DNA of 64,000 bases, taken from positions 65,201 to 129,200 of the forward strand of contig JBGUKX010000017.1 in NCBI GenBank assembly GCA_045114695.1. The letters are read 5' to 3'. The translations under genes were made by a program, and so were the position numbers. Positions within the stretch are counted from its first letter, which is position 1, and every line of letters starts with the position of its first letter. The notes below the pieces were generated by a model that worked only from the letters and a program-made list of their open reading frames with translations, was not told the origin of the DNA and did no database searches. This document shows, one piece after another, positions 14,009 to 60,579 of the stretch. The DNA comes from Lachnospiraceae bacterium (lineage in GTDB: Bacteria; Bacillota; Clostridia; Lachnospirales; Lachnospiraceae).

Positions 14009-14044
14009 CTGACTGCTCGTCCTCCGTGAAGCGCGGCGGACGTC

Positions 14045-15073: not shown

Positions 15074-15341
15074 CTCAAAAACCCTTGCGGCATGCTTCGT
15101 CGACTTTTCCGGCGCCGGCAGTCGGACGGCGTCTGCCGGCAGAAATATTATAATTCATAAGCACCTCACCCACCAGAGATTTTTCACATTTCCGGCGCCC
15201 CGGCGATTCGGGTCTGTCATTCTTCACGAAAACATATTATAATATGGGGAAGCGGGGCCCGGGCGGACAGATCCTCCGGACGTTCCCCGCCTCATTCCGA
15301 ACCTGAACTATTTTCTATTTCAAGGAGGACACAGGGTTATT

Positions 15342-39831: not shown

Positions 39832-40071
39832 GATTCCTTCCCGCGGCCGCTTCCGCCGCGCCTCACAGAGATTCCTTCCCGCAGCCGCTTCCGACGCGCC
39901 TCGGAGTGATTCCTTCCCGCAGCCGCTTCCGCCGCACCTCGGAGTGATTCCTTCCCGCGGCCGCTTCCACCGCGCCTCACAGAGATTCCTTCCCGCGGCC
40001 GCTTCCGCCGCGCCTCGGAGTGATTCATTCCCGCAGCAGCTTCCGCCGCACCTCGGAGAGATTCATTCCCG
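39832..40071. repeat. 38-bp tandem array, about 6.3 copies, whose last units are the 3' end of larC
   Basis: Units at 39832, 39870, 39908, 39946, 39984, 40022 and 40060; consensus GATTCCTTCCCGCRGCCGCTTCCGCCGCGCCTCRSAGW. Confidence 0.93.
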
Positions 40072-41566: not shown

Positions 41567-41570
41567 TCCC

Positions 41571-42341
41571 TTATCCCTTCACGTGATTGATCATTCCGGC
41601 CTGATATCCCGCGCCGAAACCGTTGTCGATGTTGACCACGCTGACCCCGCTGGCACAGGAATTCAGCATGGACAGAAGCGCCGAGACGCCGCCGAAGGAC
41701 GCCCCGTAGCCCACGCTGGTCGGCACGGCGATGACCGGGCAGTCCGCGAGGCCCCCGATCACGCTTGCCAGCGCGCCTTCCATTCCCGCCACCGCGATGA
41801 TCACGGACGCGGACATGATCTCGTCCAGATGCTTCATCAGGCGGTGAAGACCCGCGACGCCCACGTCGTAGAGGCGGACGACTTCATTTCCCAGAAATTC
41901 CGCCGTCAGAGCCGCTTCCTCCGCCACGGGAATGTCGCTGGTGCCTCCCGTCGCGACCACGACGCGACCGTGTCCTCCGGGAGAAGGCATCTCCCCGACG
42001 ATCCCGATCCTCGCGTCCCCGTGATAGCGGAAGACGATCCCTTCCTCCGCCCGGAAGGCCTCCGCGATCCTCGCGGCCGGCTCCGCGGACAGACGTGTGA
42101 TCAGAATTCTCTCCTGTCCCGCCGCGGTCATGGCCCGTATGATGCCGATGATCTGCTCCGTCGTTTTTCCCGCTCCGTAGATCACCTCTCCGGCTCCCTG
42201 GCGCAGCCCGCGGTGCATGTCCACCTTGGCATAGCCGAGCTCCTCAAAGGGCGCTGTCTTCAGCTTCAGCACCGCCTCCTCGGCGGTGACGTCTCCTCCC
42301 GCGACCTTCCTCAGAAGATCATAGATTTCGTTCTGGTCCAT
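41571..42341 (-). CDS. larB: Nickel pincer cofactor biosynthesis protein LarB
   Basis: AKVDMHR, EVIYGAGKT, GGTSDIPVAEEA, DVGVAGLHR, VAGMEGAL, VPTSVGYG and NIDNGFGA motifs. Confidence 0.95.
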   Translation of the reverse strand: MDQNEIYDLLRKVAGGDVTAEEAVLKLKTAPFEELGYAKVDMHRGLRQGAGEVIYGAGKTTEQIIGIIRAMTAAGQERILITRLSAEPAARIAEAFRAEEGIVFRYHGDARIGIVGEMPSPGGHGRVVVATGGTSDIPVAEEAALTAEFLGNEVVRLYDVGVAGLHRLMKHLDEIMSASVIIAVAGMEGALASVIGGLADCPVIAVPTSVGYGASFGGVSALLSMLNSCASGVSVVNIDNGFGAGYQAGMINHVKG

Positions 42342-46953: not shown

Positions 46954-47344
46954 TCAAAGCTCCGGAATATCGTATTTCGGGACCAGATCCTTTTTGTAGA
47001 ACTCGACCATGGATTTCAGCTCACGGTTGCTGACGGTCGTCTTTTCATCCTTCCAGATATTCTTGCCGTCTTCACCCTGACCGGCCAGATACGGTTTGGT
47101 AAGAGTTGTGTGGCCATCCGCAGGAATCTTAGCCCAGAGGCCTTTGCCGTACTGATTCTCATGGACAGCCTTTGCCGGAAGCACAAAGCCTGCCCAGGGA
47201 GTATGATCACTGCGGTCCGCATTCGGGATTACAATCTTCAGCATCTCGCGGCCGTCTTTTGTAGTGAAGGGTTCTACCGTTCCTTTCCCGAAATGCAGGG
47301 TGATCTCTTCGCTCTGTTCATAGTCCAGTCTTTTGGGCAGCCAT
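46954..47344 (-). pseudogene. Probably frameshifted hypothetical gene of mobile-element type
   Basis: The open frame extends upstream of the track ATG (47244) as ...RLDYEQSEEITLHFGKGTVEPFTTKDGREM; removing one A from the A4 run near 47331-47334 joins it to the ATG at 47344. Confidence 0.4.
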
Positions 47345-47388
47345 ATGAGTATGACAGAGTCATGGAACTGAACTGGTTATGAAGATCT

Positions 47389-47430
47389 CTACTGGACAAT
47401 TTTTAGATAGATAATAATATTGTCCGGTAG
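47389..47430. promoter_or_regulatory. 12-bp inverted repeat around an AT-rich 18-bp spacer (operator or recombination site)
   Basis: CTACTGGACAAT-N18-ATTGTCCGGTAG, one mismatch; a further TGGACAA follows at about 47434. Confidence 0.55.
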
Positions 47431-47912
47431 TAATGGACAAAAGCGGACCTCCAAGGCAAAATGCCCGGTAGAAAAGACCGCTTTCGGAAGACGAATGAGA
47501 TGATTAAACGTGAATTGGAGTATTACCTGAAGGTTTATGATGAAGATGTTTCGTCAAACTCGATCCGTGTCATGAATAACCGTTACGATTTAACTCACAA
47601 CTTTGAAAACATCGTATACAACGAAAGGTCAACTCACCCTGACATATAGAACTGCCGCGGGATACCGCCTCTTTTTCCCGGTGATAGACTGTCTGGTCAA
47701 CAACTCCTATTATTGCCGCGAATTCCTTTCGCTTTGTCGATGCAGGTATGCATCGGAACAAAGCAGTCCGGCATCTGCGCGTTGGCGGCGTACACGGTGT
47801 CCTCCGTGATCCCGGCAGGCGTCACGGATCTGAGTTTTTCTTCCATGGCCCTCCGCGACTCGGCGAGGCGCCGGTCCCGTACCCCGTGAATGTGGTATCC
47901 GCCTGTAGTTTT

Positions 47913-47940
47913 AATATATTTATTACATCCTGGCTGTCAA
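47913..47940 (-). promoter_or_regulatory. Sigma-A-like promoter pointing left into the islet
   Basis: TTGACA (47940-47935)-N16-TATATT (47918-47913). Confidence 0.5.
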
Positions 47941-48083
47941 CTCTTTATTTACATCTTTTGACACCGCGGCGAGGCGGAATGCGAATGCCCGCTTTACCCG
48001 CACTCCCCCGCTGTGTTAAACTGGGAAAAACGGCCGTTCCGCCTCCGGCGGTCCGGTTCTCATTATTTTAAGGAGTAAACTGT

Positions 48084-49103
48084 ATGCCCGGAAAACGAAT
48101 CAGATGGGGCCTTCTCGGGGCGGGCGCGATCCTGAACCGCTGGATGAAGGGAGCCGTCCAGGTCGGAAACATGGAGATCGCGGCGGTCTCCTCGAGGACG
48201 CCGGAAACCGCCGAAAAAATGCGCGCGAAATTCGGAATCCCGGAGGCGCTGAGCTACGACGAGCTGCTGGAAAGGGATGACATCGACGTGGTCTACGTCG
48301 CCGTTCCCCACACCGCCCACAAGGAGCTGGCGATCCGCGCGATGCGGGCGGGAAAGGCCGTGCTGGTGGAGAAGCCCGCCGCGGTGACCGCCGCGGACTG
48401 GGAGGAAATGACCGCCTGCGCGAAGGAGTGCGGCGTGTTCCTCATGGAAGCGGTGTGGACGAGGTTCTTCCCGCTGATCGCCGAGATCCGCAAGATCATC
48501 GAGGCCGGCGAGATCGGCAGCGTGAGGGCGGTGCAGTCCGCCTTTTCCTTCCGCACCATGCCGGGAACGGGAGATTCCCGTCTGCTGGATCCCGCGCGGG
48601 CGGGAGGCGGCCTGCTGGACACGGGCGTCTACAACCTGCATTTCGCCGACATCGTCTACGGAAAGGCGCCCCAAAAGCTCACGGGGCTGGCCTCCTTCGA
48701 CACGGACGAGCTTCACCTGAAGATCGACGAGCAGGCCGCCTACGTCGCGCAGTACGACCGGGGCGAGCTGGCGGTGATGGCCAGCGGCGTGCGCACGGAC
48801 ATGGACGACACGGCCTATATCTACGGGACGGAGGGACAGATCGTGGTGCCGGTCTTCTGGAAGCCCGTGACGGCCCGCGTCACGACGGCCTCCGGCACCA
48901 GGACGATCGAGTGTCCCGTCCCCCAGTGCGTGGAGGGCGTTGAGGACGAAGGCTATCAGTTCGAGATCGCCTACGTCAACGTCTGCCTCCGGGAGGGCGT
49001 CACCGAATCCCCCGTCGTGCCCTGGCACAAGACGGCGGAGGTCCTCGCCTGCTGCGACGAACTCAGGAAAAGCTGGAACTATCGATACCCGTTTGAGGTG
49101 TGA
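48084..49103 (+). CDS. Gfo/Idh/MocA-family oxidoreductase
   Basis: WGLLGAGAI, VYVAVPH, VLVEKP, FLMEAVWTRF and GGGLLDTGVY motifs. Confidence 0.92.
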   Translation: MPGKRIRWGLLGAGAILNRWMKGAVQVGNMEIAAVSSRTPETAEKMRAKFGIPEALSYDELLERDDIDVVYVAVPHTAHKELAIRAMRAGKAVLVEKPAAVTAADWEEMTACAKECGVFLMEAVWTRFFPLIAEIRKIIEAGEIGSVRAVQSAFSFRTMPGTGDSRLLDPARAGGGLLDTGVYNLHFADIVYGKAPQKLTGLASFDTDELHLKIDEQAAYVAQYDRGELAVMASGVRTDMDDTAYIYGTEGQIVVPVFWKPVTARVTTASGTRTIECPVPQCVEGVEDEGYQFEIAYVNVCLREGVTESPVVPWHKTAEVLACCDELRKSWNYRYPFEV

Positions 49104-49142
49104 CGACGCGAAGCGCGTCAGCGGCACAGAAAAGAGACTGCC

Positions 49143-49901
49143 TTGGAAGAATTGGAAATCATCGATATCGTAAATGAATCCGGCCAGCCCACCGGCCGGA
49201 CCGTCAGCCGCGAGGCGGCCCACAGAAACGGAATCCGTCACCGCACAAGCCACGTATGGCTCGTCCGGACCAGAGACGGAAAGCTGCAGGTGCTCCTCCA
49301 GAAGCGCAGCGAGACGAAGGACTCCCACCCGGGGTGCTACGACATCTCCAGCGCCGGGCACATTCCGGCTGGGGCCGGCTTTGAGGAGTCCGCCGTGCGC
49401 GAGCTCTACGAGGAGCTCGGCGTCCGGGCCGGCGAGAAGGATCTGGTGCCCTGCGGCGTCCGGCGGATTGAGTACCGGGACGTCTTTCACGGGGAGCCCT
49501 TCCACGACTCCCAGATCAGCAGGGTCTTTCTCGTCTTCTGCGACGCGGACGAGGAGGACTTCCTCCTGCAGGAGAACGAGGTCTCGGAGGTCCGCTGGTT
49601 TGATTTTGACGAGTGCGTGGCGCTTGTGGAGAAAAACGCTTTTCCCCACTGCATCTTCACGGAGGAGCTCGAGATGGTGCGGGCTGCGGCGGAGAAATGT
49701 CTCCTGAGGGAGCGCCGCTTCTCCCTGATCGACCGGGCGGCCCGCGGCGACGTCGACGCCGCCGCCGAGCTGGGATGCGCGTATTTCGACGGATCCCTCG
49801 GAGAGGCGCCTAATCCGGAGAAGGGCGCGAAATGGTGCCGCTACGCGGCGAAGCGGGGGTCGCGGAAGGCGGCCGAAGCGCTCAAAAAAGCAGGACTCTG
49901 A
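49143..49901 (+). CDS. Nudix hydrolase (Idi/YfcD-like) with a C-terminal Sel1-like repeat
   Basis: HRTSHVW, LQKRS..KDSHPG.YD.SSAGH, AVRELYEELG; tail AAAELGCAYFDG...GAKWCRYAAKRG. Confidence 0.85.
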   Translation: MEELEIIDIVNESGQPTGRTVSREAAHRNGIRHRTSHVWLVRTRDGKLQVLLQKRSETKDSHPGCYDISSAGHIPAGAGFEESAVRELYEELGVRAGEKDLVPCGVRRIEYRDVFHGEPFHDSQISRVFLVFCDADEEDFLLQENEVSEVRWFDFDECVALVEKNAFPHCIFTEELEMVRAAAEKCLLRERRFSLIDRAARGDVDAAAELGCAYFDGSLGEAPNPEKGAKWCRYAAKRGSRKAAEALKKAGL

Positions 49902-50048
49902 GAGCCCTGCTTTTTTTCTGTGCCGTCTTTCAGCGCGCCGTTCTTTCCGTGCGCTGTTCTTCTTCCATGTGCTGTTCTTCCGCGCGCCGTTCTTCCATGC
50001 GCTGGTCTTCAAGGCGTCCGTTTCAGGCGCAGCGGAGTTCTCCGCGCG

Positions 50049-53000
50049 TCAGTTCTTCTCCTCCGCCTTGTATTTCCTGTACTTCTCTCTCGAGAGGCGC
50101 GCCCCCTCCTCAAAGAGAACCTTCGCGTTCTCCGGGAACGTGCGCCGGAGAGACGTGTACCGCACCTCGCCGTCCAGGAATTCCTCGTAGGCGGCCGTCG
50201 GCTCCTTTGAGTCCAGCGTGAACTTCTGTTCCGCGGCGGGGTTAAACCGGTAGAGGAACCAGTAGCCGGTGTCCACTGCCTTTTTCATCTCGTCCTGAAC
50301 CTTCGCGGCGCCGCACCTCAGACCGTGCTCCTGGCACGGGGCGTAGGCGATGATCACGCTCGGTCCCTTGTACGCCATGGCCTCTTTGACGGCCGTGATC
50401 AGCTGGTTGTAGTCGGCCCCCATCGCCACCTGGGCGACGTAGACGTTGCCGTAGGTCATCAGCATGCTGCCGAGATCCTTCTTCGGCTGCTTCTTTCCGG
50501 ACGCCGCGAACTGGGCGACCGCGCCCACCGGCGTGGCCTTGGAGGACTGGCCTCCCGTGTTGGAGTAGACCTCCGTGTCGACGATGAGGACGTTGACGTC
50601 CTCGCCGCTGGCCACCACGTGGTCCAGGCCGCCGAAGCCGATGTCATAGGCCCAGCCGTCGCCGCCGTACATCCAGAAGGTCTTTTTGGAGAGCTGGTCC
50701 CTGTAGCGCAGGATCGTCCTGGCTCCTTCGTCGTCCCGCTTCTCCAGAGCGGCCGCGAGGGCCTCGCCGGCGGGGGCGGAGGCATCGAAGTCGTCGTAGG
50801 ACGCCAGCCAGGCGTCGATCGCGGAGAGCGTCTCCGGATCCGTGCAGCTTGCCCGGTACTCCTCGACGCGGCTCTTCTGAGCCAGTCTCTGCTGGGAGAC
50901 GGACAGCACCATGCCGAGGCTGAACTCCGCGTTGTTTTCAAACAGGGAGTTGGACCACGCCGGCCCGTGTCCCTTCTGGTTCACCGTATAGGGGATTCCC
51001 GGCATCGCGGAGCCCCAGGCCTGGGAGCATCCCGTGGCGTTGGCCCAGTAAACGCGGTCGCCGAAGAGCTGGGTCAGCAGCTTGGCGTAGGGCGTCTCGC
51101 CGCAGCCGGCGCAGGCCGCCGAGAACTCAAGCAGCGGTCTCCGGAACTGGCTTCCCTTGACGGAATACGGATCGAAGATATCCTCCTTCTGCGGGAGTGA
51201 CAGGGCGTATTCCCAGGCGGCCGACGTGTCCGCGGCCTCTCCGGCGGGTACCATCGTGAGAGCCTTCTCCTTCGCGGGACACACGTTTGCGCAGCTTCCG
51301 CATCCCGTGCAGTCCGCCTCGCTCACCTGCAGCGTGTAGTACATGCCCTTCGCCTGGGCGCCTTTTGCGACGGCGGTCTTCATGCCCTCCGGCATGCCGG
51401 CCTTCTCCTCCTCCGTCAGGAGATAGGGACGGACCACCGCGTGGGGACATACGTAGCTGCAGCGGTTGCACTGGAGGCAGAGCGCCGGATTCCACACCGG
51501 CACCCGGGCCGCGATGCCTCTCTTCTCGTAGGCCGTGAGGCCCATGTCCATGACGCCGTCCTTGTACTTCATCAGGCGGCTGACCGGGAGGTCGTCGCCC
51601 TTCTGGGCGTTGATGGGCTCGAGAATCTCCGTGACGACGGCCGGGACGTCTCTGGCCGGCGCGGGGGCGTCCTCGGCGTCCGCCCAGGAGGCCGGCACCT
51701 CGACCCTGACCCAGGCGTCGGAGCCCGCGTCGATGGCGGCGAGGTTGCGGTTCACCACGTCCTCGCCCTTCGCGAAATACGTCTTCTCCGCGGCGGCCTT
51801 CATGTAGCGCACGGAGTCCTCCACCGGGATGACCGGCATGAGGTGGAAGAAGGCGGACTGCAGCACCATGTTGAAATGGCCTCCCAGCCCGAGCTTCCGG
51901 GCGATGCCCGCTCCGTCGATGGTATAGAGGCGGATCTTGCGGCGGGCGATCTCCCGCTTCGCCTTCGCGGGAAGGCGCCGCTCCAGCTCCCCCGCGTCCC
52001 ACGGGCAGTTGATCAGCAGCGTCCCACCCGGCTTGACCTCCGAGGCGATGTCGTATTTTTCGATGTAGGTCGCGTTGTGGCACGCGATGAAGTCGGCGGA
52101 TTTCACGTAGTAGGACGACCGGATCGGCCGGTCCCCGAACCTCAGGTGGCTCTTGGTGACGCCGTAGGACTTCTTGGCGTCGTACTCAAAGTACGCCTGG
52201 GCAAACTTGTCCGTGTGGGAGTTGATGATCTCCACCGTGTTCTTGTTGGCGCCGACGGTTCCGTCCGAGCCCAGTCCCCAGAACTTGCAGCTGACCAGTC
52301 CCTCGTCCTCCGGGCGGACCGTCTCCGTCTCCTTCAGCGACAGGTGGGTCACGTCGTCGTTGATGCCGATGGTAAAGCTGTTCAGAGGCGTTTCGGCGCG
52401 GAGATTCTCAAAGACCGCGGCGATCTGGGAGGGCGTGGTGTCCTTGGAGGACAGGCCGTAGCGGCCTCCGACGACCGTCAGGTCCGCCCGTCCGCGAAGG
52501 GCCGTGCAGACGTCCTGGCAGAGGGGCTCGCCGGCGCTTCCCATCTCCTTCGCGCGGTCGAGGACCGCGACGGCGCGGCAGGTCTCCGGGATGGCTTCGA
52601 TGAAGCGGCGGACGTCGAAGGGACGAAACAGATGGACCTGGACGAAGCCGGTCTTCTCTCCCCGGGCGTTCAGGAAATCCACGGTCTCCTTCACGCAGCC
52701 CGAGACCGAGCCCATGGCGACGATGACGCGGTCTGCGTCAGGCGCGCCGTAGTAGTTGAAAATGTGATAGTCCCGGCCGGTGACGGCGTTGATGCCCTTC
52801 ATGTACTCCTCGACGACGTCGGGGAGGGCGGCGTAGTCGCCGTTGCTGGCTTCCCGGATCTGGAAGAAGATGTCGGGATTCTGCACGGTCGCCCGGATCA
52901 TCGGATGCTCGGGGTTGAGCGCCTGGGCGCGGAACGCGTCGAGGGCGTCCCGGTCGAGGAGCGCGGCGAGATCCCGGTAATCCATCTGCTCCACCTTGTT

Positions 53001-53549
53001 CAGCTCGTGGGAGGTACGGAACCCATCGAAGAAGTGCAGGAAAGGAATCCTGGCCTTGATCGCCGACAGGTGCGCCACGCCGGCGAGGTCCATCACCTCC
53101 TGGACGTCGCCGCTGGAGAGCAGGGCGAAGCCGGTCTGGCGGCAGTTGTACACGTCGGAGTGGTCCCCGAAGATCGAAAGGGCGTGTCCGCCCACCGTCC
53201 GGCTCGCGACGTGAAGGACGCCCGGGAGACGCTCGCCCGCGATGCGGTGCATCGTGGGGATCATCAGCATGAGACCCTGGGAAGACGTGAAGCTCGACGC
53301 CAGGGCGCCTGTCTCGAGGGCGCCGTGCACCGCCGCGATCGCGCCGGCCTCCGACTGCATCTCCACGAGACGCACGCTCTGCCCGAAAAGGTTCTTTTTG
53401 CCCTTCGCGGCCCACACGTCGGTCTTTCCCGCCATCGGCGACGACGGCGTAATCGGATAGATCGCCGCGATCTCGGTAAACGCGTAGGCGATATAGGCCG
53501 CCGCCTCGTTGCCGTCGACGGTCACGTACTGTTTCTTTCTCTCAGACAT
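50049..53549 (-). CDS. nifJ: NifJ-type pyruvate/2-oxoacid:ferredoxin oxidoreductase
   Basis: YPITPSS, EMQSEAGA, GSDGTVGA, two CxxCxxCxxxCP, ACAGCGE, GGDGWAYDIG and NTGGQ motifs. Confidence 0.93.
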   Translation of the reverse strand: MSERKKQYVTVDGNEAAAYIAYAFTEIAAIYPITPSSPMAGKTDVWAAKGKKNLFGQSVRLVEMQSEAGAIAAVHGALETGALASSFTSSQGLMLMIPTMHRIAGERLPGVLHVASRTVGGHALSIFGDHSDVYNCRQTGFALLSSGDVQEVMDLAGVAHLSAIKARIPFLHFFDGFRTSHELNKVEQMDYRDLAALLDRDALDAFRAQALNPEHPMIRATVQNPDIFFQIREASNGDYAALPDVVEEYMKGINAVTGRDYHIFNYYGAPDADRVIVAMGSVSGCVKETVDFLNARGEKTGFVQVHLFRPFDVRRFIEAIPETCRAVAVLDRAKEMGSAGEPLCQDVCTALRGRADLTVVGGRYGLSSKDTTPSQIAAVFENLRAETPLNSFTIGINDDVTHLSLKETETVRPEDEGLVSCKFWGLGSDGTVGANKNTVEIINSHTDKFAQAYFEYDAKKSYGVTKSHLRFGDRPIRSSYYVKSADFIACHNATYIEKYDIASEVKPGGTLLINCPWDAGELERRLPAKAKREIARRKIRLYTIDGAGIARKLGLGGHFNMVLQSAFFHLMPVIPVEDSVRYMKAAAEKTYFAKGEDVVNRNLAAIDAGSDAWVRVEVPASWADAEDAPAPARDVPAVVTEILEPINAQKGDDLPVSRLMKYKDGVMDMGLTAYEKRGIAARVPVWNPALCLQCNRCSYVCPHAVVRPYLLTEEEKAGMPEGMKTAVAKGAQAKGMYYTLQVSEADCTGCGSCANVCPAKEKALTMVPAGEAADTSAAWEYALSLPQKEDIFDPYSVKGSQFRRPLLEFSAACAGCGETPYAKLLTQLFGDRVYWANATGCSQAWGSAMPGIPYTVNQKGHGPAWSNSLFENNAEFSLGMVLSVSQQRLAQKSRVEEYRASCTDPETLSAIDAWLASYDDFDASAPAGEALAAALEKRDDEGARTILRYRDQLSKKTFWMYGGDGWAYDIGFGGLDHVVASGEDVNVLIVDTEVYSNTGGQSSKATPVGAVAQFAASGKKQPKKDLGSMLMTYGNVYVAQVAMGADYNQLITAVKEAMAYKGPSVIIAYAPCQEHGLRCGAAKVQDEMKKAVDTGYWFLYRFNPAAEQKFTLDSKEPTAAYEEFLDGEVRYTSLRRTFPENAKVLFEEGARLSREKYRKYKAEEKN

Positions 53550-53572
53550 GATAGCAGTTCCTCCCGATCCCT

Positions 53573-54385
53573 TTATTCCGTTTCAATATGATAGAGTCCG
53601 GCGCAGTTCTTCTCGAAAATCCGCCCGTACTCCTCTTCGGTAAAATTCATCTCTTCCATGAACGCCAGGTCGTCTTCCTGGAACCACATGGGATAGTCCG
53701 TCCCGAACATGACCCGCCGGGTTCCGAAGGCCCGGATGATTTCCTCCGCCCTCTCCTTCGTCAGCCACGGAAAGGACGACGAGGTGTCGACCATGATATT
53801 GGGGAAGTCCGGAAGTAGCCGGACCGCCCGGTCCCACACGCTCCAGCCTCCCAGATGCGCCCCGACGAACTTCAGGCGGGGAAACGTCCTGAGGACGTTT
53901 GCGATCCGCTCCGGATTGGAATAATCATACCTGAAATCCCCGGTGTGCACCAGTACCGGCAGGTCGTTCCTTTCGCAGAGCTCATAGATCCGGAAGGCCT
54001 CCTCGCTGTCGGCGCGGAATCTCTGGAAATCCGGGTGGAGCTTCACTCCCTTAAGCCCGAGCCGCATCAGTTCGGCGAGATCCTCCTCCGGATGCGCGGA
54101 TGCAGGATGCATCGCGCCAAGTCCCGTGAAGGCGCCTCCGGACTGTCTCACGGCGTCCGCCAGAAAAGTGTTGATGCTGTGGACCTGCTCCGGCTTCGTG
54201 GCCACCGAATGGACCACGAAATGCGATATTCCGGCCTTTTCCCCGGATTTCCGCAGGCTGTCCGCCGTCCCGTCGTGATGGCACGAGGCCGGCAGTCCGT
54301 CGTAAAACCGGTCCACCGAGGCCACCGCCTTCTCCGCGATGGCCCGTGGGTAGATGTGACAGTGGCTGTCGATGATTCTCTTCAT
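53573..54385 (-). CDS. Amidohydrolase_2-family metallo-hydrolase/decarboxylase
   Basis: IDSHCH, GVKLHP, VHTG, AHLGG and FGTDYP motifs. Confidence 0.88.
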   Translation of the reverse strand: MKRIIDSHCHIYPRAIAEKAVASVDRFYDGLPASCHHDGTADSLRKSGEKAGISHFVVHSVATKPEQVHSINTFLADAVRQSGGAFTGLGAMHPASAHPEEDLAELMRLGLKGVKLHPDFQRFRADSEEAFRIYELCERNDLPVLVHTGDFRYDYSNPERIANVLRTFPRLKFVGAHLGGWSVWDRAVRLLPDFPNIMVDTSSSFPWLTKERAEEIIRAFGTRRVMFGTDYPMWFQEDDLAFMEEMNFTEEEYGRIFEKNCAGLYHIETE

Positions 54386-54424
54386 GCTTCCGCCTGTATT
54401 CCCGCGCTCCCGAAGGACCGTATC

Positions 54425-56923
54425 TTACGCGGTTTCGATGCTGGCGGCCTTTTCCAGCCCGAGCTTCTTCACCGCTTCCTCTCTCATCTTGTACTTCTGG
54501 ATCTTTCCCGCGTCGTTCATCGGGAAATGGTCGACGAAATCGATATACTTGGGGACCTTGTGCTTGGCCATGTGGTCCATCACGAACTTCTTCATCTCCT
54601 CGACCGTCATGGTCTCGCCCTCCTTCAGGATGATGCAGGCCATGATCTCCTCGCCCATCGCCTGGTCGGGAACGCCGATGACCTGCACGTCGCTGACCTT
54701 CGGGTGGGTGTAGATGAACTCCTCGATCTCCTTGGGGTAGATGTTCTCGCCGCCGCGGATGATCATGTCCTTGAGGCGCCCGGTGATGCGGTAATTGCCC
54801 TCGGGCGTCCGGCAGGCGAGGTCCCCGGTGTGGAGCCATCCGTCCCTGTCGATGGCGGAGGCCGTGGCCTTCGGCATCTTGTAGTAGCCCTTCATGATGT
54901 TGTAGCCGCGGGCGACGAACTCGCCGATCACCTCATCCGGGCAGTCCTCGCCGGTCTCGGGATCCACAATCTTGCATTCCACCTCGGGGAACGCGCTGCC
55001 GACGGTGGAGACACGGACCTCCAGGGAATCCGTCGTCCGGCTCATGGTGCAGCCGGGGGAAGCTTCCGTCTGTCCGTAGACGATGACGATCTCCGGCATG
55101 TGCATCTTTTCGACGACGTCCTTCATCACCGCGATCGGGCAGGGGCTTCCCGCCATGATACCGGTCCTCATGTGGCTGAAATCCGTCTTCGGGAAATCCG
55201 GGTGGGACAGCATCGCGATGAACATGGTCGGAACGCCGTGGAAGGCGGTGATGTGCTCGTTGTGAATGCACGAAAGCGACGACTTCGGCGAGAAATACGG
55301 AATCGGCAGGATCGTGCCCCCGTGGGTCATGGTCGCGGTCATCGCCAGGACCATGCCGAAGCAGTGGAACATCGGCACCTGGATCATCATGCGGTCCTCC
55401 GTGGACAGATCCATGCCGTCGCCGATGCTCTTGCCGTCGTTCACCACGTTGTAGTGGGTCAGCATGACGCCCTTGGGGAAGCCCGTGGTGCCGGAGGTGT
55501 ACTGCATGTTGCAGACGTCGTTGACGCTCACCGCGGCGGCCATCCTGCGGATCTCCTCCACCGGCGTTCTGGACGCGTATTCCAGGGACTCCTCCCAGGT
55601 CAGCGCCCCCGGCATGCGGAAGCCCACGGTGATGACGTTTCTCAGGAACGGCAGGCGGCGGCTGTGAAGGGGCCGGCCCGGCCTGTTGTCGCGCAGCTCC
55701 GGGCAGAGCTCGTCGATGATCTTTTTGTAGTTGGAATCCCGGTAGCCCTCGATCATGACCAGCGTGTGGGTGTCGGACTGGCGGAGCAGGTACTCCGCCT
55801 CGTGGATCTTGTACGCCGTGTTCATGGTCACGAGGATCGCGCCGATCTTGGTGGCGGCCCAGAAGGTCAGGAACCACTGGGGGACGTTGGTCGCCCAGAT
55901 CGTCACCTTGGAGCCTGCCCTGACGCCCAGGGACACCAGCGTCCGAGCGAATTCGTCCACGTCGTCGCGGAACTCGGCGTAGGTCCTGGTGTAATCCAGC
56001 GTCGTGAAGCGGATCGCGGTCTGATCCGGAAACTCCTCCACCATCGTGTCCAGCACCTGGGGGAAGGTCTTGTCGATCAGCGTGCCCTTCTTCCAGACGT
56101 AGCGCCCCACGTGACGGCCGCTCCAGTACAGGTGCTTCTTTCCCCTCCGGGTATCCCCGTAGGGCTTCATGGCGTTCTCGAAGTGCGTCAGGATGATCTC
56201 GATGTCCTCGAGGCCCTCCGCCCAGGAGGGATCCCACTCGAGGGAGACGAAGCCGTCGTAGTTGACGGACCGCAGGGCGTTCATCAGGTCCGGTATCGGG
56301 AGGCTTCCCTCGCCGATGAGCTCCGGCGCGATCGCCCCGTCCTCCTTCCGGAAGTCGTGGATGTGGACGTGGCGGACGTAGGCGCCGAGATTGGAGATGG
56401 TGGTCTCCGCATCCTCGCCGGCCAGGACCGAGGTGGTGTACATGTCCCAGACCGCCGCGAGGCGGTCGTCCGAGAAGCGGTTCAGAAGGTCCCGCAGACG
56501 TCCCGTTTCCCCCAGCGCGCCGGCGGTCTCCACCAGGATCGTAACCGGCGTGTCCTCGACGGTCCCGAGCAGACGGCCGAGGGCCGCCCCGCAGACGTCC
56601 TGATCCGTCTCTTCCGTGTGGATGGCGATATAGTCCGACCCGAGATTGACGGCCGCCTCCAGGCACTCGGAAAATTCGTCCGGGAACGCCGGATCCGTGA
56701 AATCCCTGACCGTCCCGATGCACGGGATCGAAAGCCCCCTGCCGATCAGGTCCCTCCTCACGGAAGCCGAGCGGTCCGGGTTGACGGGGCTCGTCTTCCC
56801 CTGAAATACCGGTCCCCTGATATCAAAAAGCTCGATGCCCTGCATGCGCGTGCAGACGGCGACGTCGCAGAATTCTTCCCAGGTCTGCTGATTCCAGTTC
56901 TGCATTGAAAATGAAAGCTTCAA
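54425..56923 (-). CDS. Fusion of a xylose-isomerase-like TIM barrel (AP_endonuc_2) and an AMP-forming acyl-CoA synthetase
   Basis: N-terminal VET...WD...HVHIHD...SLEW; C-terminal QYTSGTTGFPKG, YGQTE, TGDL, RGGENIYP and GKIQK motifs. Start set at TTG 56923 behind GGAGG. Confidence 0.9.
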   Translation of the reverse strand: MKLSFSMQNWNQQTWEEFCDVAVCTRMQGIELFDIRGPVFQGKTSPVNPDRSASVRRDLIGRGLSIPCIGTVRDFTDPAFPDEFSECLEAAVNLGSDYIAIHTEETDQDVCGAALGRLLGTVEDTPVTILVETAGALGETGRLRDLLNRFSDDRLAAVWDMYTTSVLAGEDAETTISNLGAYVRHVHIHDFRKEDGAIAPELIGEGSLPIPDLMNALRSVNYDGFVSLEWDPSWAEGLEDIEIILTHFENAMKPYGDTRRGKKHLYWSGRHVGRYVWKKGTLIDKTFPQVLDTMVEEFPDQTAIRFTTLDYTRTYAEFRDDVDEFARTLVSLGVRAGSKVTIWATNVPQWFLTFWAATKIGAILVTMNTAYKIHEAEYLLRQSDTHTLVMIEGYRDSNYKKIIDELCPELRDNRPGRPLHSRRLPFLRNVITVGFRMPGALTWEESLEYASRTPVEEIRRMAAAVSVNDVCNMQYTSGTTGFPKGVMLTHYNVVNDGKSIGDGMDLSTEDRMMIQVPMFHCFGMVLAMTATMTHGGTILPIPYFSPKSSLSCIHNEHITAFHGVPTMFIAMLSHPDFPKTDFSHMRTGIMAGSPCPIAVMKDVVEKMHMPEIVIVYGQTEASPGCTMSRTTDSLEVRVSTVGSAFPEVECKIVDPETGEDCPDEVIGEFVARGYNIMKGYYKMPKATASAIDRDGWLHTGDLACRTPEGNYRITGRLKDMIIRGGENIYPKEIEEFIYTHPKVSDVQVIGVPDQAMGEEIMACIILKEGETMTVEEMKKFVMDHMAKHKVPKYIDFVDHFPMNDAGKIQKYKMREEAVKKLGLEKAASIETA

Positions 56924-57018
56924 AATAAACGTCCTCCTGTAGTGCCCTCCGGGCCGGCCGCTGCCGCGCCCCGGAGCCTTCGTCATTCGTTCCGCCCGTA
57001 GGGTCTTCCCCGCGTCCC

Positions 57019-58428
57019 TCAGGCTTCCTCGTACACAATCTTGTTGAGAGCGCTGAGATGCGCGCGGATCGACGCGCCGATGATGTCGGTGGAGATTCCG
57101 TTGCCGGAATAGACCCTTCCGCCCGCGCGGAGCTTGACGAGGGCGCTTCCCATGGCGTCCCTGCCCTCCGTCACGGTCTGGATCTGGAAATCGTCGAGCT
57201 CGTAGTGATGGCCGATGATCTGCTCGATGGCCTGGAAGGCCGCGTCGATCGGGCCGTCCCCGATTCCCACGCCGCGGATCTCCCGGCCGTCCTTCTCGAG
57301 GAGAATGTTGGCGGTGGCCGTGATCACATTTCCGCTGTTGATGACGTAATTTTTCAGTTTATAGGTCGAGGGGACCTGCATCGCGGAGCTCGCGACGATG
57401 GCGTCGAGCTCCTTCGTTCCCACGAAATGCTTCTTCTCCGCCACCGAGAGGAAGGCCTCGTAGACCCTGGCGTTGTCCTCCTCGGTGAGGTCGTAGCCGA
57501 GCTGGCGGACGACGCGGATCACGTCGCCGATCTCGTCGTTTCCGTCCAGGCAGACCCCGGAGGCGTCGCCGAGGGCGACGTTGGAAAAGCGGGAGGTTTC
57601 CTCCGGCTCCGGCTCGAGGATCCGGCCCAGCTGTCCCACGACGCGGTGGAGCTCCGTCAGGCGGACGCCGGTGGAGAGATCCAGGTCATTTCCCTTCACC
57701 TCCACGAACTTCGCCAGCTCCTCGATCGTCGGGTAGCCGTTGGGAAGCACGGTGCACTTCACGCCCGCGGCGCCTCTCTGAACCGCCGCCGCCGCGCAGG
57801 CGAGGGCCATGTTCATGGCGTCGCTGACCTCCACATAGAGCTCTATGTCGGCGAGGCCGGGGACGTTCTCCATGACGCCTCCGACAAAAGCGCCGAACTC
57901 GTCCGGCATCATGACGCCGGCGGTGTCGCAGACCGTGATCTTGTTGGCCCCGGCTTCCACCGCCGTGTTCAGGGCCTGATACAGAAACTCCGGCTCGGCG
58001 CGGGTGGCGTCGACGGCGGAGAATTCCACGAATTCGCTGTAAAAGCGGGCCTTTTTCACCTGGTCGGCGATGGCCTCCAGCATGGCGGGCGCCTTCCGGT
58101 GGCACGTGTATTCCATCTGGACGGTGGAGACGGGCGCGATGATGTTGAGCTTGGGCTTCTTCGCGGTGCGGACGCTCTCCCAGGTCTCCTCCACGTTTCC
58201 GGCGGCGATATCGACAGCGGCTGAGATCCGGGTGACCACCATGGAGGCGATGGTGCGGTTGGCGAGCTGGTCCGCCTTGCTCCCGGAGATCGGCGCCAGT
58301 TCGATCGTATCCGCCCTGAGCCGGTCAAGGCTGCGGGCGATCTCCAGCTTCTCCTTGAAGGACAGTTCCCTTCCGCGCGCGCTGCTTGCCTGTCTCAGTG
58401 TCATGTCGATGAATTTCAGTGTTCTCAT
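57019..58428 (-). CDS. LeuA/citramalate-synthase-like protein (DRE-TIM fold plus LeuA allosteric domain) lacking the catalytic metal ligands
   Basis: DMTLRQ in place of DTTLRD; VEVSD in place of VHCHND; C-terminal GDGPIDAAFQAI...AMGSALV...STDIIGAS allosteric domain. Start at MRTLKF (58428); the track's longer ORF runs into the T-box. Confidence 0.85.
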   Translation of the reverse strand: MRTLKFIDMTLRQASSARGRELSFKEKLEIARSLDRLRADTIELAPISGSKADQLANRTIASMVVTRISAAVDIAAGNVEETWESVRTAKKPKLNIIAPVSTVQMEYTCHRKAPAMLEAIADQVKKARFYSEFVEFSAVDATRAEPEFLYQALNTAVEAGANKITVCDTAGVMMPDEFGAFVGGVMENVPGLADIELYVEVSDAMNMALACAAAAVQRGAAGVKCTVLPNGYPTIEELAKFVEVKGNDLDLSTGVRLTELHRVVGQLGRILEPEPEETSRFSNVALGDASGVCLDGNDEIGDVIRVVRQLGYDLTEEDNARVYEAFLSVAEKKHFVGTKELDAIVASSAMQVPSTYKLKNYVINSGNVITATANILLEKDGREIRGVGIGDGPIDAAFQAIEQIIGHHYELDDFQIQTVTEGRDAMGSALVKLRAGGRVYSGNGISTDIIGASIRAHLSALNKIVYEEA

Positions 58429-58554
58429 GATTGCATTCCTTTCTCTCTGATGTGAACGCTCTTGAGGCCTCCCCGCCGCCGCGGGAAGAGGCAAAGATCC
58501 TGTCTGCTTCCCGCGCCGCGGCTTCTCCGACGGCTTCGCGGGAGGCTCCGGGGA

Positions 58555-58863
58555 TAAAAAACGTCCCGGAGGCTCAGACGCATATCTGACCTCCGGGACG
58601 ACTAGATGCACGATCTGATCGCGGTACCACCCGGATTGCTGCCCGAAAGCAGCCTCTCTTCGGCGCTCCATTAAGCGCCCGGCCTTGGTTACGGGGCCCT
58701 CCGGATCCCCCTACGCAGTCCGCCGCCCGCCGGTCTCTCCCGGAATAGCGTCGGTCCTTCAGGAAATCTGCTCTGGCATGAGACTGCTCGCCGCACTCAC
58801 ACCGGCTCACACCAGCCGCCGGCTCTCTGAAGTGGTGGTCAGTTCGCATAGTGCCGTCATCGC
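58555..58863 (-). ncRNA. T-box riboswitch, leucine specifier CUC
   Basis: Minus strand: stem I with AGAGAG and GGTG boxes, ACTG/CAGT and GGCA/TGCC pairings flanking CTCA (CTC at 58782-58780); T-box AATCCGGGTGGTACCGCG (58637-58620); terminator CGTCCCGGAGG...CCTCCGGGACG-TTTTTT (58600-58555). Confidence 0.93.
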
Positions 58864-59166
58864 ATTTGCTAACTGAAGAAGGATTTTAATGGATGAAAGC
58901 GCTTTTGTCAAGTCTTTCGTCCGCTCCCGGGGGCACGTCTTTCATCTGCTCCCGGAGGCGCCTCTCCTGGCAGACGTTTCTTTCCTCCCGGGCCGGAAAG
59001 CGTCCGCGCGAAAAGCGCCTTTCGCCGCAGTGTCCCTTGCCCGGCCCGTCCCTCTGCATTATACTGAAAGAGAACGGGGCAGACCCGCAGCGGACCGCAA
59101 AGAAAGCCCACTCTCCGTCCGGGGCCGAAGGGCCCGGGGACGGCCTATTTCCGGAGGTAAATATCG

Positions 59167-60579
59167 ATGAGAAAAACCAAGATTATCTGCACCATCGGAC
59201 CTGCCTGCGACACCGAGGAGATGCTGAAGGAGCTCGCCCGCGCGGGAATGAACGTGGCCAGGCTCAATTTCTCCCACGGCACCCATCCGGAGCACCAGGC
59301 GCGCATCGACAGAATCAAGAAGGTACGCGCCGAGATGAATCTCCCGATCGCCATCATGCTGGACACCAAGGGACCCGAATACCGGATCGGCACCTTCGCC
59401 AACGGCAAGGTCTCCCTCGAGGCGGGAAATCCGTTTGTGTTCACGACGGAGGACGTCACCGGCGACGAGAGCCGCGTCTCCGTCAGCTACAAGGGCCTTC
59501 CCGGCGAGCTTGAGCCGGGGGACACCATCCTCCTCAACAACGGACTCATGAACTTCCGGGTCGTCTCCGCCACCGGCACGGAGATCTGCACGGAGGTCGT
59601 CATCGGCGGCGTTCTCTCCGACCGCAAGAGCATGAGCTTCCCCGGGAAGCACATCCGCCAGACCTATCTCTCGGACCAGGACAAGGCCGACATTCTCTTC
59701 GGCATTCAGAACGACATCGACTTCATCGCCTGCTCCTTCGTCTCGGTCCGGCAGGATCTCCAGGACGTCCAGGATTTCCTCGACGCGAACGGCGGGGAAA
59801 AGATCGAGCTGATCGCCAAGATCGAGAACCAGACCGGCTACGACAACATCGAGAGCATCTGCTCGGCCTGCAGCGGCGTCATGGTCGCCCGCGGCGATCT
59901 CGGCGTCGAGGTTCCCTTCGAGAAGCTCCCCGGCATGCAGAAGCAGCTGATCTCCTCCTGCCGGATGCTGGGCAAGCGCGTCATCACGGCCACCGAGATG
60001 CTCGAGTCCATGATCCACAGTCCCCGGCCGACCCGCGCCGAAGCGTCCGACGTGGCGAACGCCGTCTACGACGGGACCAGCGCGGTGATGCTCTCCGGAG
60101 AGACGGCGGCGGGCGAGTACCCGGTGCTGGCGGTACAGACCATGGCGAAGATCGCCGAGGCGACGGAGAACAACATCCCCTACGACCGCCTCTTCCACGA
60201 CAACGAATTCCTGATCAAGAACGAGATCGACGCGATCTCCCACTCCACCTGCGGCATGGCCATCGACCTCAAGGCCAGCGTCATCGTCGCCTGCACCATC
60301 TCCGGCGTCACCGCCCGCATGGTCTCGCGCTTCCGCGCGCCGGTGGACATCATCGGTCTCACCACGGACGAACACACCTGGCGCAAGCTCGCCCTCTCCT
60401 GGGGCGTCACGCCGATGATGTGCGAGATGCTGCCCTCCACCGAGGTTCTGTTCTACACCGCGAAGAAGCTCGCGGCGGACGTCATGAACCTCAGCAAGGG
60501 CGACACCATCATCATCACCGGCGGCATCACCAACGGCCAGTCCGGCAACACCAACCTGATCAAGCTCGAGAAGATCTGA
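59167..60579 (+). CDS. pyk: Pyruvate kinase
   Basis: RKTKIICTIGP, ARLNFSHG, DTKGPE, AKIEN, MVARGDLG, ATEMLESM and PTRAE motifs. Confidence 0.96.
   Translation: MRKTKIICTIGPACDTEEMLKELARAGMNVARLNFSHGTHPEHQARIDRIKKVRAEMNLPIAIMLDTKGPEYRIGTFANGKVSLEAGNPFVFTTEDVTGDESRVSVSYKGLPGELEPGDTILLNNGLMNFRVVSATGTEICTEVVIGGVLSDRKSMSFPGKHIRQTYLSDQDKADILFGIQNDIDFIACSFVSVRQDLQDVQDFLDANGGEKIELIAKIENQTGYDNIESICSACSGVMVARGDLGVEVPFEKLPGMQKQLISSCRMLGKRVITATEMLESMIHSPRPTRAEASDVANAVYDGTSAVMLSGETAAGEYPVLAVQTMAKIAEATENNIPYDRLFHDNEFLIKNEIDAISHSTCGMAIDLKASVIVACTISGVTARMVSRFRAPVDIIGLTTDEHTWRKLALSWGVTPMMCEMLPSTEVLFYTAKKLAADVMNLSKGDTIIITGGITNGQSGNTNLIKLEKI

What the first reader, a model, noticed from the sequence alone, without database searches (positions are those of the whole stretch)
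54425..56923. Xylose-isomerase-like TIM barrel fused to an acyl-CoA synthetase
About 280 aa of AP_endonuc_2-type barrel, with candidate metal ligands E (VET), D (VWD), H (HVHIHD) and E (SLEW), is fused in frame to a complete adenylating enzyme with the QYTSGTTGFPKGVMLTH loop. That loop resembles, from memory, the ACSF2/B. subtilis YngI group linked to leucine metabolism. The fusion implies a coupled isomerase, epimerase or dehydratase step on the acid or acyl-CoA, or a ligand-sensing domain. Neither role is known to me.
Basis: partly seen in the sequence, partly recalled or inferred. Interest (0 to 1): 0.62.

Follow-up and report, generated by a model that had tools for sequence, protein, structure and literature searches.

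The report
Leucine-switched acid-CoA ligase with decayed barrel
The fused gene is real and common in gut and rumen Clostridia: it most likely activates the fermentation acid isovalerate so that cells lacking the normal leucine pathway can rebuild leucine, while its sugar-isomerase-like front domain has lost most of its enzyme signature and probably serves as a binding or regulatory module.

Summary
One 832-aa ORF (54425-56923, minus strand, TTG start behind AGGAGG) joins a xylose-isomerase-like TIM barrel to a complete AMP-forming acyl-CoA ligase. The same architecture occurs in over 1,400 protein clusters and at least 80 species genomes, so it is not an assembly artefact.

The gene sits in a leucine (CUC) T-box operon: dead LeuA-like protein, fusion, Amidohydro_2, NifJ-type PFOR. 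In other species this unit lies next to VorB-type oxidoreductase genes, IlvE, and MbcS-like ligases under Ile or Val T-boxes. In this genus, genomes carry either the operon or leuA/leuCD, almost never both. The window's genome has neither leuA nor leuCD.

The best reading is an isovalerate-CoA ligase feeding reductive carboxylation to leucine (inferred, not assayed).

The barrel descends from a strictly conserved stand-alone enzyme family that also occurs split, as T-box(Leu)-ligase-TIM-amidohydrolase. In the LeuA-associated fusions it keeps only 20-37 of that family's 54 conserved positions (25 here). Its metal tetrad changed state at least 10 times. It remains under purifying selection and has gained new conserved residues. 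A coupled isomerase step is therefore unlikely here; a non-catalytic role is more likely. No paper on it was found.

The parts
58591..58869 (-). T-box leader with a CUC (Leu) specifier, followed by a terminator hairpin and T-run ending near 58545
   Evidence: RF00230 scores 81.5 bits, E 6.3e-18, below the gathering score of 93. Orthologous leaders score 98-106 bits. The specifier CUC is invariant in the stem I alignment. The sequence was read.
57019..58428 (-). LeuA-like protein (469 aa): an HMGL-like barrel lacking the IPMS catalytic motifs, plus a LeuA_dimer (leucine-binding) domain
   Evidence: Pfam matches. All IPMS models score far below their cut-offs. It reads DMTLRQASS where, from memory, IPMS has DTTLRDGEQ (sequence). 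It lies directly upstream of the fusion in 68 of 70 loci.
54425..56923 (-). The finding: an 832-aa TIM-barrel::acyl-CoA ligase fusion with a TTG start and an AGGAGG ribosome-binding site
56159..56923 (-). N-terminal xylose-isomerase-like TIM barrel (residues 1 to about 255 of 832). Tetrad codons: E132 at 56528-56530, D160 at 56444-56446, H187 at 56363-56365, E229 at 56237-56239. H189 (56357-56359) replaces the Lys that is invariant in the enzyme family.
   Evidence: Pfam PF01261; AlphaFold model; Foldseek; codons checked; 25 of 54 family positions kept
56072..56158 (-). Linker of about 29 residues, low confidence in both models
   Evidence: pLDDT below 50 at residues 252-278 of the model and at the end of the TIM-only model
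54428..56071 (-). AMP-forming acyl-CoA ligase, PRK12583-like, with the core motifs intact: YTSGTTGFPKG at 55469-55501, YGQTE at 55064-55078, HTGD at 54821-54832, GRLKDMIIRGGENIYP at 54734-54781, GKIQK at 54494-54508
   Evidence: Pfam; NCBIfam NF009233 at 690 bits; motif coordinates
53573..54385 (-). Amidohydro_2 protein (270 aa). HCH, KLHPD, VHTGD and FGTDYP are present in the sequence. Its role is unknown.
   Evidence: Pfam PF04909, E 1e-37. Directly downstream of the fusion in 46 of 71 loci, and also present in the split form. The nearest solved structure is the uncharacterised BB4693.
50049..53549 (-). NifJ-type 2-oxoacid:ferredoxin oxidoreductase paralogue (1166 aa), the proposed carboxylating step
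   Evidence: Adjacent in same-genus loci and in 6 of 80 species loci. A second copy at 55% identity lies on contig C14 of the same genome.

Best explanation
The gene encodes the acid-activating enzyme of a leucine-starvation operon. When tRNA-Leu is uncharged, the CUC T-box lets transcription run through four genes: the LeuA-like gene, the fusion, the amidohydrolase and the PFOR paralogue. The C-terminal ligase most likely converts isovalerate, ATP and CoA to isovaleryl-CoA. The adjacent PFOR (a VorB-type enzyme in other species) would then reductively carboxylate isovaleryl-CoA to 4-methyl-2-oxopentanoate. An IlvE-type transaminase, encoded elsewhere in this genome, would turn that into leucine. 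This route would replace the isopropylmalate pathway, which this genome lacks. The N-terminal barrel descends from a strictly conserved stand-alone enzyme that was already linked to this ligase. In the lineage that acquired the dead LeuA partner, the barrel's catalytic face has decayed and a new set of residues became conserved. It is therefore most likely a non-catalytic module. It may hold the ligase in a complex, possibly with the leucine-binding LeuA-like protein, so that leucine can brake the first ATP-consuming step. What is shown: the fusion, its context, its regulation, the gene-content complementarity, and the decay together with continued constraint of the barrel. What is inferred: the substrate, the direction of the oxidoreductase, and any role of the barrel.
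For: Regulation. The window has a T-box at E 6e-18. Orthologues score above the gathering score. The specifier is CUC (rarely CUG) ahead of the LeuA-like gene in more than 50 species loci.

Context. The LeuA-like gene is directly upstream in 68 of 70 loci and Amidohydro_2 is directly downstream in 46 of 71. About 33-35 of the 80 loci also hold VorB alpha (548 bits, cut-off 399), beta and gamma subunits, and IlvE (480 bits, cut-off 307). A PFOR is adjacent in this genus.

Sister systems. MbcS-like ligases in the same clusters sit behind AUC (Ile) or GUA (Val) T-boxes. Purified MbcS activates 2-methylbutyrate and isobutyrate but handles isovalerate poorly (PMC10026030). A separate ligase for the leucine branch is therefore expected.

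Complementarity. In the genus, 0 of 11 fusion-bearing genomes have LeuC and 1 of 11 has a genuine LeuA. Among genomes without the fusion, 12 of 14 have LeuC and 11 of 14 have LeuA (Fisher p = 2e-5 and 1e-3). At order level, 0 of 6 genomes with the operon type have LeuC over the cut-off, against 124 of 195 others. The own genome lacks LeuA, LeuC and LeuD but has IlvBNC, IlvE and two PFORs.

Barrel. The stand-alone family keeps E-D-H-K-E in 120 of 120 clusters and 51-54 of its 54 conserved positions. LeuA-associated fusions keep 20-37, and this protein keeps 25. The tetrad state changed at least 16 times on the ligase tree, with at least 10 changes forced by well-supported branches. dN/dS of the barrel is 0.04-0.19 in both intact and degenerate lineages. 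The lost positions follow beta strands; the newly conserved ones lie mostly in helix-to-strand loops.

Split form. T-box(CUC)-ligase-TIM-Amidohydro_2 occurs as separate genes.
Against: No enzyme activity, substrate or interaction has been measured, and the substrate is inferred from context only. This protein itself still has all four canonical metal ligands, so residual or altered catalysis cannot be excluded. The conserved Amidohydro_2 partner and the ancestral, clearly enzymatic barrel have no place in a simple three-step isovalerate route; something about the pathway is still missing. The full-length model gave no usable domain packing, and the distance-correlation test did not single out the LeuA-like protein. 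The ligase scores below the curated cut-off of its nearest family. The gene-content complementarity rests on MAGs and on related genomes, which are not independent observations.
Confidence: 0.6

Rival explanations
1. The barrel is still an enzyme. It would carry out an isomerase, epimerase, dehydratase or hydratase step on the acid, its precursor or the acyl-CoA, coupled to the ligase and perhaps to the amidohydrolase. The operon would then encode a longer, unknown salvage route to leucine.
For: This protein keeps E132, D160, H187 and E229. The barrel is under purifying selection. Its ancestors are strictly conserved enzymes found right beside the same ligase and amidohydrolase under a Leu T-box. 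The amidohydrolase looks intact and is widely kept.
Against: The tetrad is broken in most orthologues with the same context. The invariant Lys is His in this whole clade. R27, H156, H157, R160, K226 and R227 of the enzyme family are F, Y, T, V, P and S here. Loss of the tetrad shows no link to loss of the amidohydrolase (p = 0.6).
Confidence: 0.2
2. The ligase activates a different acid, or makes isovaleryl-CoA mainly as a primer for iso-branched membrane fatty acids (as MbcS does in Staphylococcus) rather than for leucine synthesis.
For: The substrate has not been tested. The nearest family, PRK12583, is annotated only as a fatty-acid CoA ligase family. MbcS-type enzymes serve lipid synthesis. 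Leucine shortage would also deplete leucine-derived primers.
Against: The T-box senses tRNA-Leu charging. The operon replaces leuA/leuCD in gene content. It is clustered with an oxidoreductase and IlvE, which a primer supply route would not need.
Confidence: 0.12
3. The gene acts in leucine or isovalerate breakdown, by analogy with the Bacillus subtilis yng genes (that association is recalled from memory, not tested here).
For: Sequence resemblance of the ligase to PRK12583.
Against: Induction by uncharged tRNA-Leu is the opposite of what a catabolic gene needs. No acyl-CoA dehydrogenase, carboxylase or HMG-CoA lyase genes are in the cluster.
Confidence: 0.03
4. The fusion is an assembly or gene-calling artefact that joins two separate genes.
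For: None found. Reads could not be examined.
Against: The same uninterrupted architecture occurs in over 1,400 clusters from independent assemblies and sources and in 80 of 80 species genomes. The linker region contains several nearly invariant residues.
Confidence: 0.01

Closest known systems
PRK12583 / NF009233 'fatty acid CoA ligase family protein' (from memory, the group holding ACSF2 and B. subtilis YngI), in the ANL superfamily
   Same: It is the best family match, covering the whole ligase (profile positions 13-556 of 558, 690 bits). All the adenylation and thioester-forming core motifs are present.
   Different: The score is below the curated cut-off of 832. This protein carries a roughly 255-residue N-terminal barrel, is controlled by a Leu T-box, and is paired with a dead LeuA. 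No solved structure is close; the best PDB hit is a feruloyl/fatty-acyl-CoA synthetase at E 4.5e-77 covering only part of the ligase.
MbcS, the methylbutyryl-CoA synthetase of Staphylococcus aureus (PMC10026030)
   Same: It is an ATP-dependent activation of an exogenous branched short-chain acid. MbcS-like ligases sit in the same gene clusters under Ile and Val T-boxes.
   Different: It belongs to a different ligase family (the two are only about 25% identical). MbcS serves lipid primers and handles isovalerate poorly. The MbcS-like paralogues carry an HTH-cupin N-terminus rather than a barrel.
Stand-alone Clostridial 'sugar phosphate isomerase/epimerase' barrels of about 268 aa (for example P0376), and solved xylose-isomerase-like barrels (Art22 8z1i, UlaE 3cqj, D-psicose 3-epimerase 3vni, AsbF 3dx5, IolI 1i60)
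   Same: The fold is the same (TM about 0.7). This is the closest sequence family, and it has the same genomic partners, the ligase and Amidohydro_2, under a Leu T-box.
   Different: Only 25 of the family's 54 conserved positions are kept, and the catalytic Lys is lost. The function of the stand-alone family is itself unknown.
Isovalerate carboxylation route to leucine in rumen bacteria (labelling work of Allison, Bryant and co-workers in the 1960s; cited from my own knowledge)
   Same: The gene set present (ligase, 2-oxoacid:ferredoxin oxidoreductase, branched-chain transaminase), the host taxa (rumen and gut Ruminococcus-like Clostridia), and the absence of the isopropylmalate route in carriers all match.
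   Different: That work defined a labelling pattern, not genes. No open paper assigning genes was found here. The barrel, the dead LeuA and the amidohydrolase have no counterpart in the classical scheme.

Membership tests
ANL superfamily, AMP-forming acyl-CoA synthetase | AMP-binding and AMP-binding_C domains over Pfam thresholds | tested here: met
   299.7 bits (cut-off 29.9) and 62.5 bits (cut-off 24.5)
ANL superfamily, AMP-forming acyl-CoA synthetase | Core motifs: the phosphate loop T/SSGTTGxPKG, GQTE, TGD, the hinge GRxKD, and the C-terminal catalytic Lys (motif definitions from my own knowledge) | tested here: met
   YTSGTTGFPKG, YGQTE, HTGD, GRLKDMIIRGGENIYP and GKIQK are all present and invariant in 66 orthologues
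ANL superfamily, AMP-forming acyl-CoA synthetase | ATP- and CoA-dependent formation of an acyl-CoA; substrate identity | not testable with these tools
   Needs an enzyme assay
NCBIfam NF009233 (PRK12583) | Whole-protein score at or above the curated cut-off of 832 bits | tested here: not met
   689.7 to 691.2 bits. It is the best match, but the protein is a relative rather than a curated member.
Xylose isomerase-like TIM barrel (Pfam PF01261) | Profile match over threshold and a barrel fold | tested here: met
   60.7 bits against a cut-off of 31.1. Model pLDDT 88.8. Foldseek probability 1.00 and TM 0.63-0.76 to UlaE, Art22, DPEase and IolI.
Xylose isomerase-like TIM barrel (Pfam PF01261) | Glu-Asp-His-Glu metal site conserved among orthologues | tested here: not met
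   The site is present in this protein. It is intact in only 33 of 139 close orthologues and 35 of 83 wider sequences, with at least 10 independent changes.
Stand-alone Clostridial barrel enzyme family (P0292-P0411) | The 54 positions conserved at 95% or more, including E-D-H-K-E, R27, H156, H157, R160, K226 and R227 | tested here: not met
   The window protein keeps 25 of 54. Family members keep 51-54 and lone fusions keep 38-49.
T-box leader (Rfam RF00230), leucine class | Covariance-model match, specifier codon, and terminator/antiterminator | tested here: met
   81.5 bits, E 6e-18, under the gathering score of 93 in the window. Orthologues score 98-114 bits. The CUC specifier is conserved. 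A terminator hairpin with a T-run is visible in the sequence.
Branched acid to branched-chain amino acid route by reductive carboxylation | Ligase, 2-oxoacid:ferredoxin oxidoreductase and branched-chain transaminase encoded together, or at least in the same genome | tested here: met
   A PFOR is adjacent in the window. IlvE is on contig C4 of the same genome. Vor and IlvE lie in the same cluster in 33-35 related loci.
Branched acid to branched-chain amino acid route by reductive carboxylation | Carbon flow from isovalerate into leucine | not testable with these tools
   Needs isotope labelling or complementation

The most novel reading that the evidence does not exclude
Two former enzymes act together as a sensor. 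The decayed barrel on the ligase docks the catalytically dead LeuA copy through its newly conserved face. Leucine bound to the LeuA regulatory domain then switches off isovalerate activation. The pathway would thus have allosteric feedback built entirely from pseudoenzymes, layered on T-box control. A second, less likely novelty is that the still-enzymatic ancestral trio (ligase, barrel, amidohydrolase under a Leu T-box) marks an unknown chemical route into leucine.
Probability: 0.3. Interest if true: 0.8.

Novelty: new variant of a known kind. Interest (0 to 1): 0.62.

Why it matters
Rumen and gut anaerobes have been known from labelling studies since the 1960s to build leucine from isovalerate (my own knowledge), and isoacids are used as ruminant feed additives. 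In the searches made here I found no gene assigned to the activation step. This protein is a concrete, widely distributed candidate for that step, and it can be tested with a simple assay. Its presence predicts which uncultured species depend on isovalerate rather than on the isopropylmalate pathway. That matters for cross-feeding models and for cultivation media. The barrel is also a clean natural example of an enzyme domain turning into a conserved non-catalytic module after fusion, with its intact ancestors still available for comparison.

Tried and rejected
- The Rfam scan at gathering threshold found nothing in 47000-60000. The T-box appeared only with the E-value threshold.
- The full-length AlphaFold model was poor (pLDDT 65, pTM 0.42, ligase core below 50). 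The 66-sequence alignment may be too uniform. No statement about domain packing is made.
- The mirror-tree test gave barrel distances that track the LeuA-like protein (r 0.72; partial r 0.66 given the ligase). They track the amidohydrolase equally well (r 0.76), so the signal probably reflects fast-evolving proteins in general and is not evidence of contact.
- I first took the amidohydrolase for a window-specific insertion, because it is missing in several same-genus loci. The 80-species survey showed the opposite.
- The PDB sequence searches gave no informative relative. The barrel's best hit was the uncharacterised MJ1311 (E 6e-5) and the amidohydrolase's was the uncharacterised BB4693.
- An aromatic-acid route of the AsbF/AsbC type was considered because AsbF is among the fold matches. 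It was rejected because of the Leu T-box and the gene context.
- Seven literature searches found no paper on the fusion, the operon or a bacterial isovalerate-CoA ligase.
- The control genomes do not say which one holds a PRK12583 member, so whether YngI belongs to that family remains untested.
Full report
**1. What is there**

The minus strand carries one uninterrupted frame from 56986 to 54425. The longest ATG form (853 aa) is an artefact of ORF listing. A TTG at 56923 sits 9 nt behind AGGAGG. It gives an 832-aa protein, MKLSFSMQNW..., with the same N-terminus and length as its relatives.

Pfam finds a xylose-isomerase-like barrel, an AMP-binding domain and its C-terminal domain, all over threshold. 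The ligase's best curated family is PRK12583, matched end to end at 690 bits, below the cut-off of 832. All ligase core motifs are present. No close solved structure exists for either half.

**2. The fusion is real and common**

- The best 120 hits of a whole-protein search all carry the three domains on one chain of 820-843 aa.
- A search scored on the barrel alone finds 1,480 clusters among candidates of 0.55 to 1.75 times the query's length.
- A scan of one genome per species returned more than 581 encoding stretches. The best 80 are all full-length fusions, from uncultured rumen and gut Clostridia of cattle, goat, sheep, deer, buffalo, rabbit and human.
- All names given by public sources are generic: 'AMP-binding protein' or 'fatty-acyl-CoA synthase'.

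Recurrence across independent assemblies still excludes an artefact.

**3. Regulation and neighbours**

The gene order on the minus strand, with short gaps, is as follows:

| Feature | Coordinates |
|---|---|
| T-box leader | 58591-58869 |
| LeuA-like protein | 57019-58428 |
| Fusion | 54425-56923 |
| Amidohydro_2 | 53573-54385 |
| NifJ-type PFOR | 50049-53549 |

The T-box scores 81.5 bits (E 6e-18), under Rfam's gathering score. Its orthologues score 98-106 bits. A stem I model built from six leaders found the leader ahead of the LeuA-like gene in more than 50 species loci. The specifier is CUC, rarely CUG, and both code for leucine.

Across the 80 species loci:

- The LeuA-like gene is directly upstream in 68 of 70 loci with enough sequence.
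- Amidohydro_2 is directly downstream in 46 of 71.
- About 33-35 loci also hold a block of VorB-type 2-oxoacid:ferredoxin oxidoreductase subunits and an IlvE transaminase, both over their curated cut-offs. That block also holds 751-aa HTH-cupin ligases whose best family is MbcS.
- Those ligases sit behind T-boxes with AUC (Ile) or GUA (Val) specifiers.

Purified MbcS activates 2-methylbutyrate and isobutyrate but handles isovalerate poorly (PMC10026030). The three branched acids would thus be served by three T-box-gated ligases, and the barrel-bearing one serves the leucine branch.

**4. The operon stands in for the isopropylmalate pathway**

*Genus level (25 genomes).* Eleven genomes carry the fusion.

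| | LeuC (TIGR02083) | Genuine LeuA (NF002991 over cut-off) |
|---|---|---|
| Fusion present (11) | 0 | 1 |
| Fusion absent (14) | 12 | 11 |
| Fisher p | 2e-5 | 1e-3 |

A fusion-free congener has the usual ilvBN-ilvC-leuCD-leuA cluster.

*Order level (201 genomes at least 90% complete).* The six genomes with this type of fusion have no LeuC over the cut-off, against 124 of 195 others. All 21 listed genomes of other genera in the same family have a strong LeuC match (18 of them over the curated cut-off), and none of the 20 listed in the fusion search has the fusion.

*The window's own genome.* It lacks LeuA, LeuC, LeuD, multi-subunit Vor and MbcS-like ligases. It has IlvB, IlvN, IlvC, an IlvE, and a second PFOR at 55% identity. 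It can therefore reach 2-oxoisovalerate by itself but not leucine. Its only leucine-gated genes are this operon.

These are MAGs and related genomes, so the counts are not independent events. The pattern is nonetheless consistent at two taxonomic depths.

**5. The barrel**

They are not conserved:

- Only 33 of 139 close orthologues (ligase about 92% identical) keep all four. Across species genomes the figure is 35 of 83 sequences.
- D-to-N, K-to-N/S/T and E-to-V changes travel together.
- On a ligase-domain tree the state changes at least 16 times, with at least 10 changes forced by well-supported branches. The outgroup fusions are intact.
- The barrel is still under purifying selection. Its dN/dS is 0.04-0.19 in both intact and degenerate lineages, about two to four times that of the ligase. 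Many of these pairs have saturated dS.

The closest relatives of the barrel are a large family of stand-alone proteins of about 268 aa (638 clusters). In that family E-D-H-K-E is invariant in 120 of 120 clusters, and 54 positions are at least 95% conserved.

| Group | Conserved positions kept (of 54) |
|---|---|
| Stand-alone family members | 51-54 |
| Three fusions that lack a LeuA-like neighbour or whose context is unknown | 38-49 |
| 81 LeuA-associated fusions | 20-37 |
| This protein | 25 |

In this protein, F, Y, T, V, H, P and S stand where the enzyme family has R27, H156, H157, R160, K183, K226 and R227.

By the secondary structure of the confident TIM-only model, the lost positions follow the beta strands. 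That is the catalytic face of a TIM barrel. The positions newly conserved only in the LeuA-associated clade are R51, L137, L141, F144, D147, A151, I170, N172, G174, A175, L196, E199, A210, S213, N215 and M246. Most of these lie in helix-to-strand loops, which is the opposite face. This placement is my inference from the secondary-structure string, not from coordinates.

**6. Fused and split forms**

In Acetivibrionales-labelled genomes the same parts are separate genes. The order is a T-box (114 bits, CUC specifier), a 554-aa ligase 58% identical to this one, an intact 270-aa barrel, and an Amidohydro_2. Two other genomes have T-box(CUC)-ligase-PrkC-barrel. One has ligase-barrel. Four sampled stand-alone barrels have no ligase nearby.

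The halves are thus functionally linked beyond the fusion, and the ligase belongs to a leucine regulon well outside this clade. This also means the ancestral barrel and the amidohydrolase probably had enzymatic roles tied to the ligase. I cannot name those roles, and the simple isovalerate scheme does not need them.

**7. Reading**

- *Most likely:* an isovalerate-CoA ligase that starts a T-box-gated route to leucine by reductive carboxylation. Its former enzyme domain is now kept for a non-catalytic purpose. Docking the leucine-binding dead LeuA is the most attractive idea but is untested.
- *Main rival:* the barrel still catalyses something. This is kept alive by the intact tetrad in this particular protein and by the unexplained amidohydrolase.
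- *Lesser rivals:* supply of lipid primers, another substrate, or a catabolic role. Each fits the regulation and gene content worse.

**8. Comparison with what is known, and with earlier notes of this scan**

The nearest known families are PRK12583-type ligases, MbcS, xylose-isomerase-like barrels, and the classical isovalerate carboxylation route. The protein fails the curated cut-off of the first and the conserved-site test of the third. It is therefore a relative of these families and cannot be filed as a member of them.

Earlier AI notes from this scan, on this genome and on more than 80 others, reach the same pathway reading. They guided me to the T-box early. They are not independent evidence; I re-derived each point used here.

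- the complementarity counts at genus and order level;
- the contrast between the intact stand-alone family and the decayed fused barrels, with numbers;
- the repeated independent loss of the tetrad under continued purifying selection;
- the split trio under a Leu T-box.

I found no paper describing the fusion or the operon in the searchable library. That library does not cover subscription journals.

Noticed in passing
L017:11229-13496 and 13652-15964; L068:977-3229; about 31 of loci L024-L103: Proteins of about 750 aa join an XRE-type HTH, a cupin and an MbcS-like acyl-CoA ligase. They sit behind T-boxes with AUC (Ile) or GUA (Val) specifiers and next to VorB-type oxidoreductase genes and IlvE. 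A DNA-binding and cupin head on a ligase is itself an odd, undescribed fusion.
   Followed up: partly
L066:634-1293 (family present in 33 loci): A 220-aa P-loop protein (MTYKRLTILCGHYGSGKTN...) lies between the HTH-cupin ligase and VorB in most of the clusters that hold both. It has no NCBIfam match. A relative in L017 has a weak CbiA/ParA-type Pfam hit. It may be a maturation or assembly factor for the oxidoreductase.
   Followed up: no
window 53573-54385 and related loci: An Amidohydro_2 protein with HCH, KLHPD, VHTGD and FGTDYP motifs follows the ligase in 46 of 71 loci, and also in the split Acetivibrionales form. It has no role in the simple isovalerate scheme. Its nearest solved relative is the uncharacterised BB4693.
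   Followed up: partly
own genome, contig C28:64832-65689 and C28:70616-72082: A second Amidohydro_2 (35% identical) and a second AMP-binding ligase (29% identical) lie about 5 kb apart elsewhere in the same genome. This may be a related pair.
   Followed up: no
window 48063-50012: A 649-aa ORF lies 36 nt behind the PFOR on the same strand. It has no Pfam match and no counterpart in the related loci examined, so it is probably not part of the conserved unit.
   Followed up: partly
own genus versus its family; ligase tree: The operon is found only in the window's genus among the genera sampled from its family. All other listed genomes of the family have a strong LeuC match, most of them over the curated cut-off. 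The window's ligase clade nests among sequences from MAGs labelled Oscillospiraceae or Acutalibacteraceae. This suggests horizontal acquisition followed by loss of leuA/leuCD.
   Followed up: partly
L109:2197-6813 and L111:2469-6810; L017:2041-8329: The Leu-gated ligase and the barrel repeatedly lie beside the PASTA Ser/Thr kinase gene prkC and its rsgA-rpe-thiN neighbours. Part of the ligase-barrel adjacency may therefore be inherited synteny.
   Followed up: no
window 40025-42341: Adjacent Ni_insertion (LarC-like, 513 aa) and AIRC (LarB-like, 256 aa) genes, next to an isochorismatase-domain gene and a DUF1848 gene. The set looks like one for maturing a nickel-pincer cofactor.
   Followed up: no
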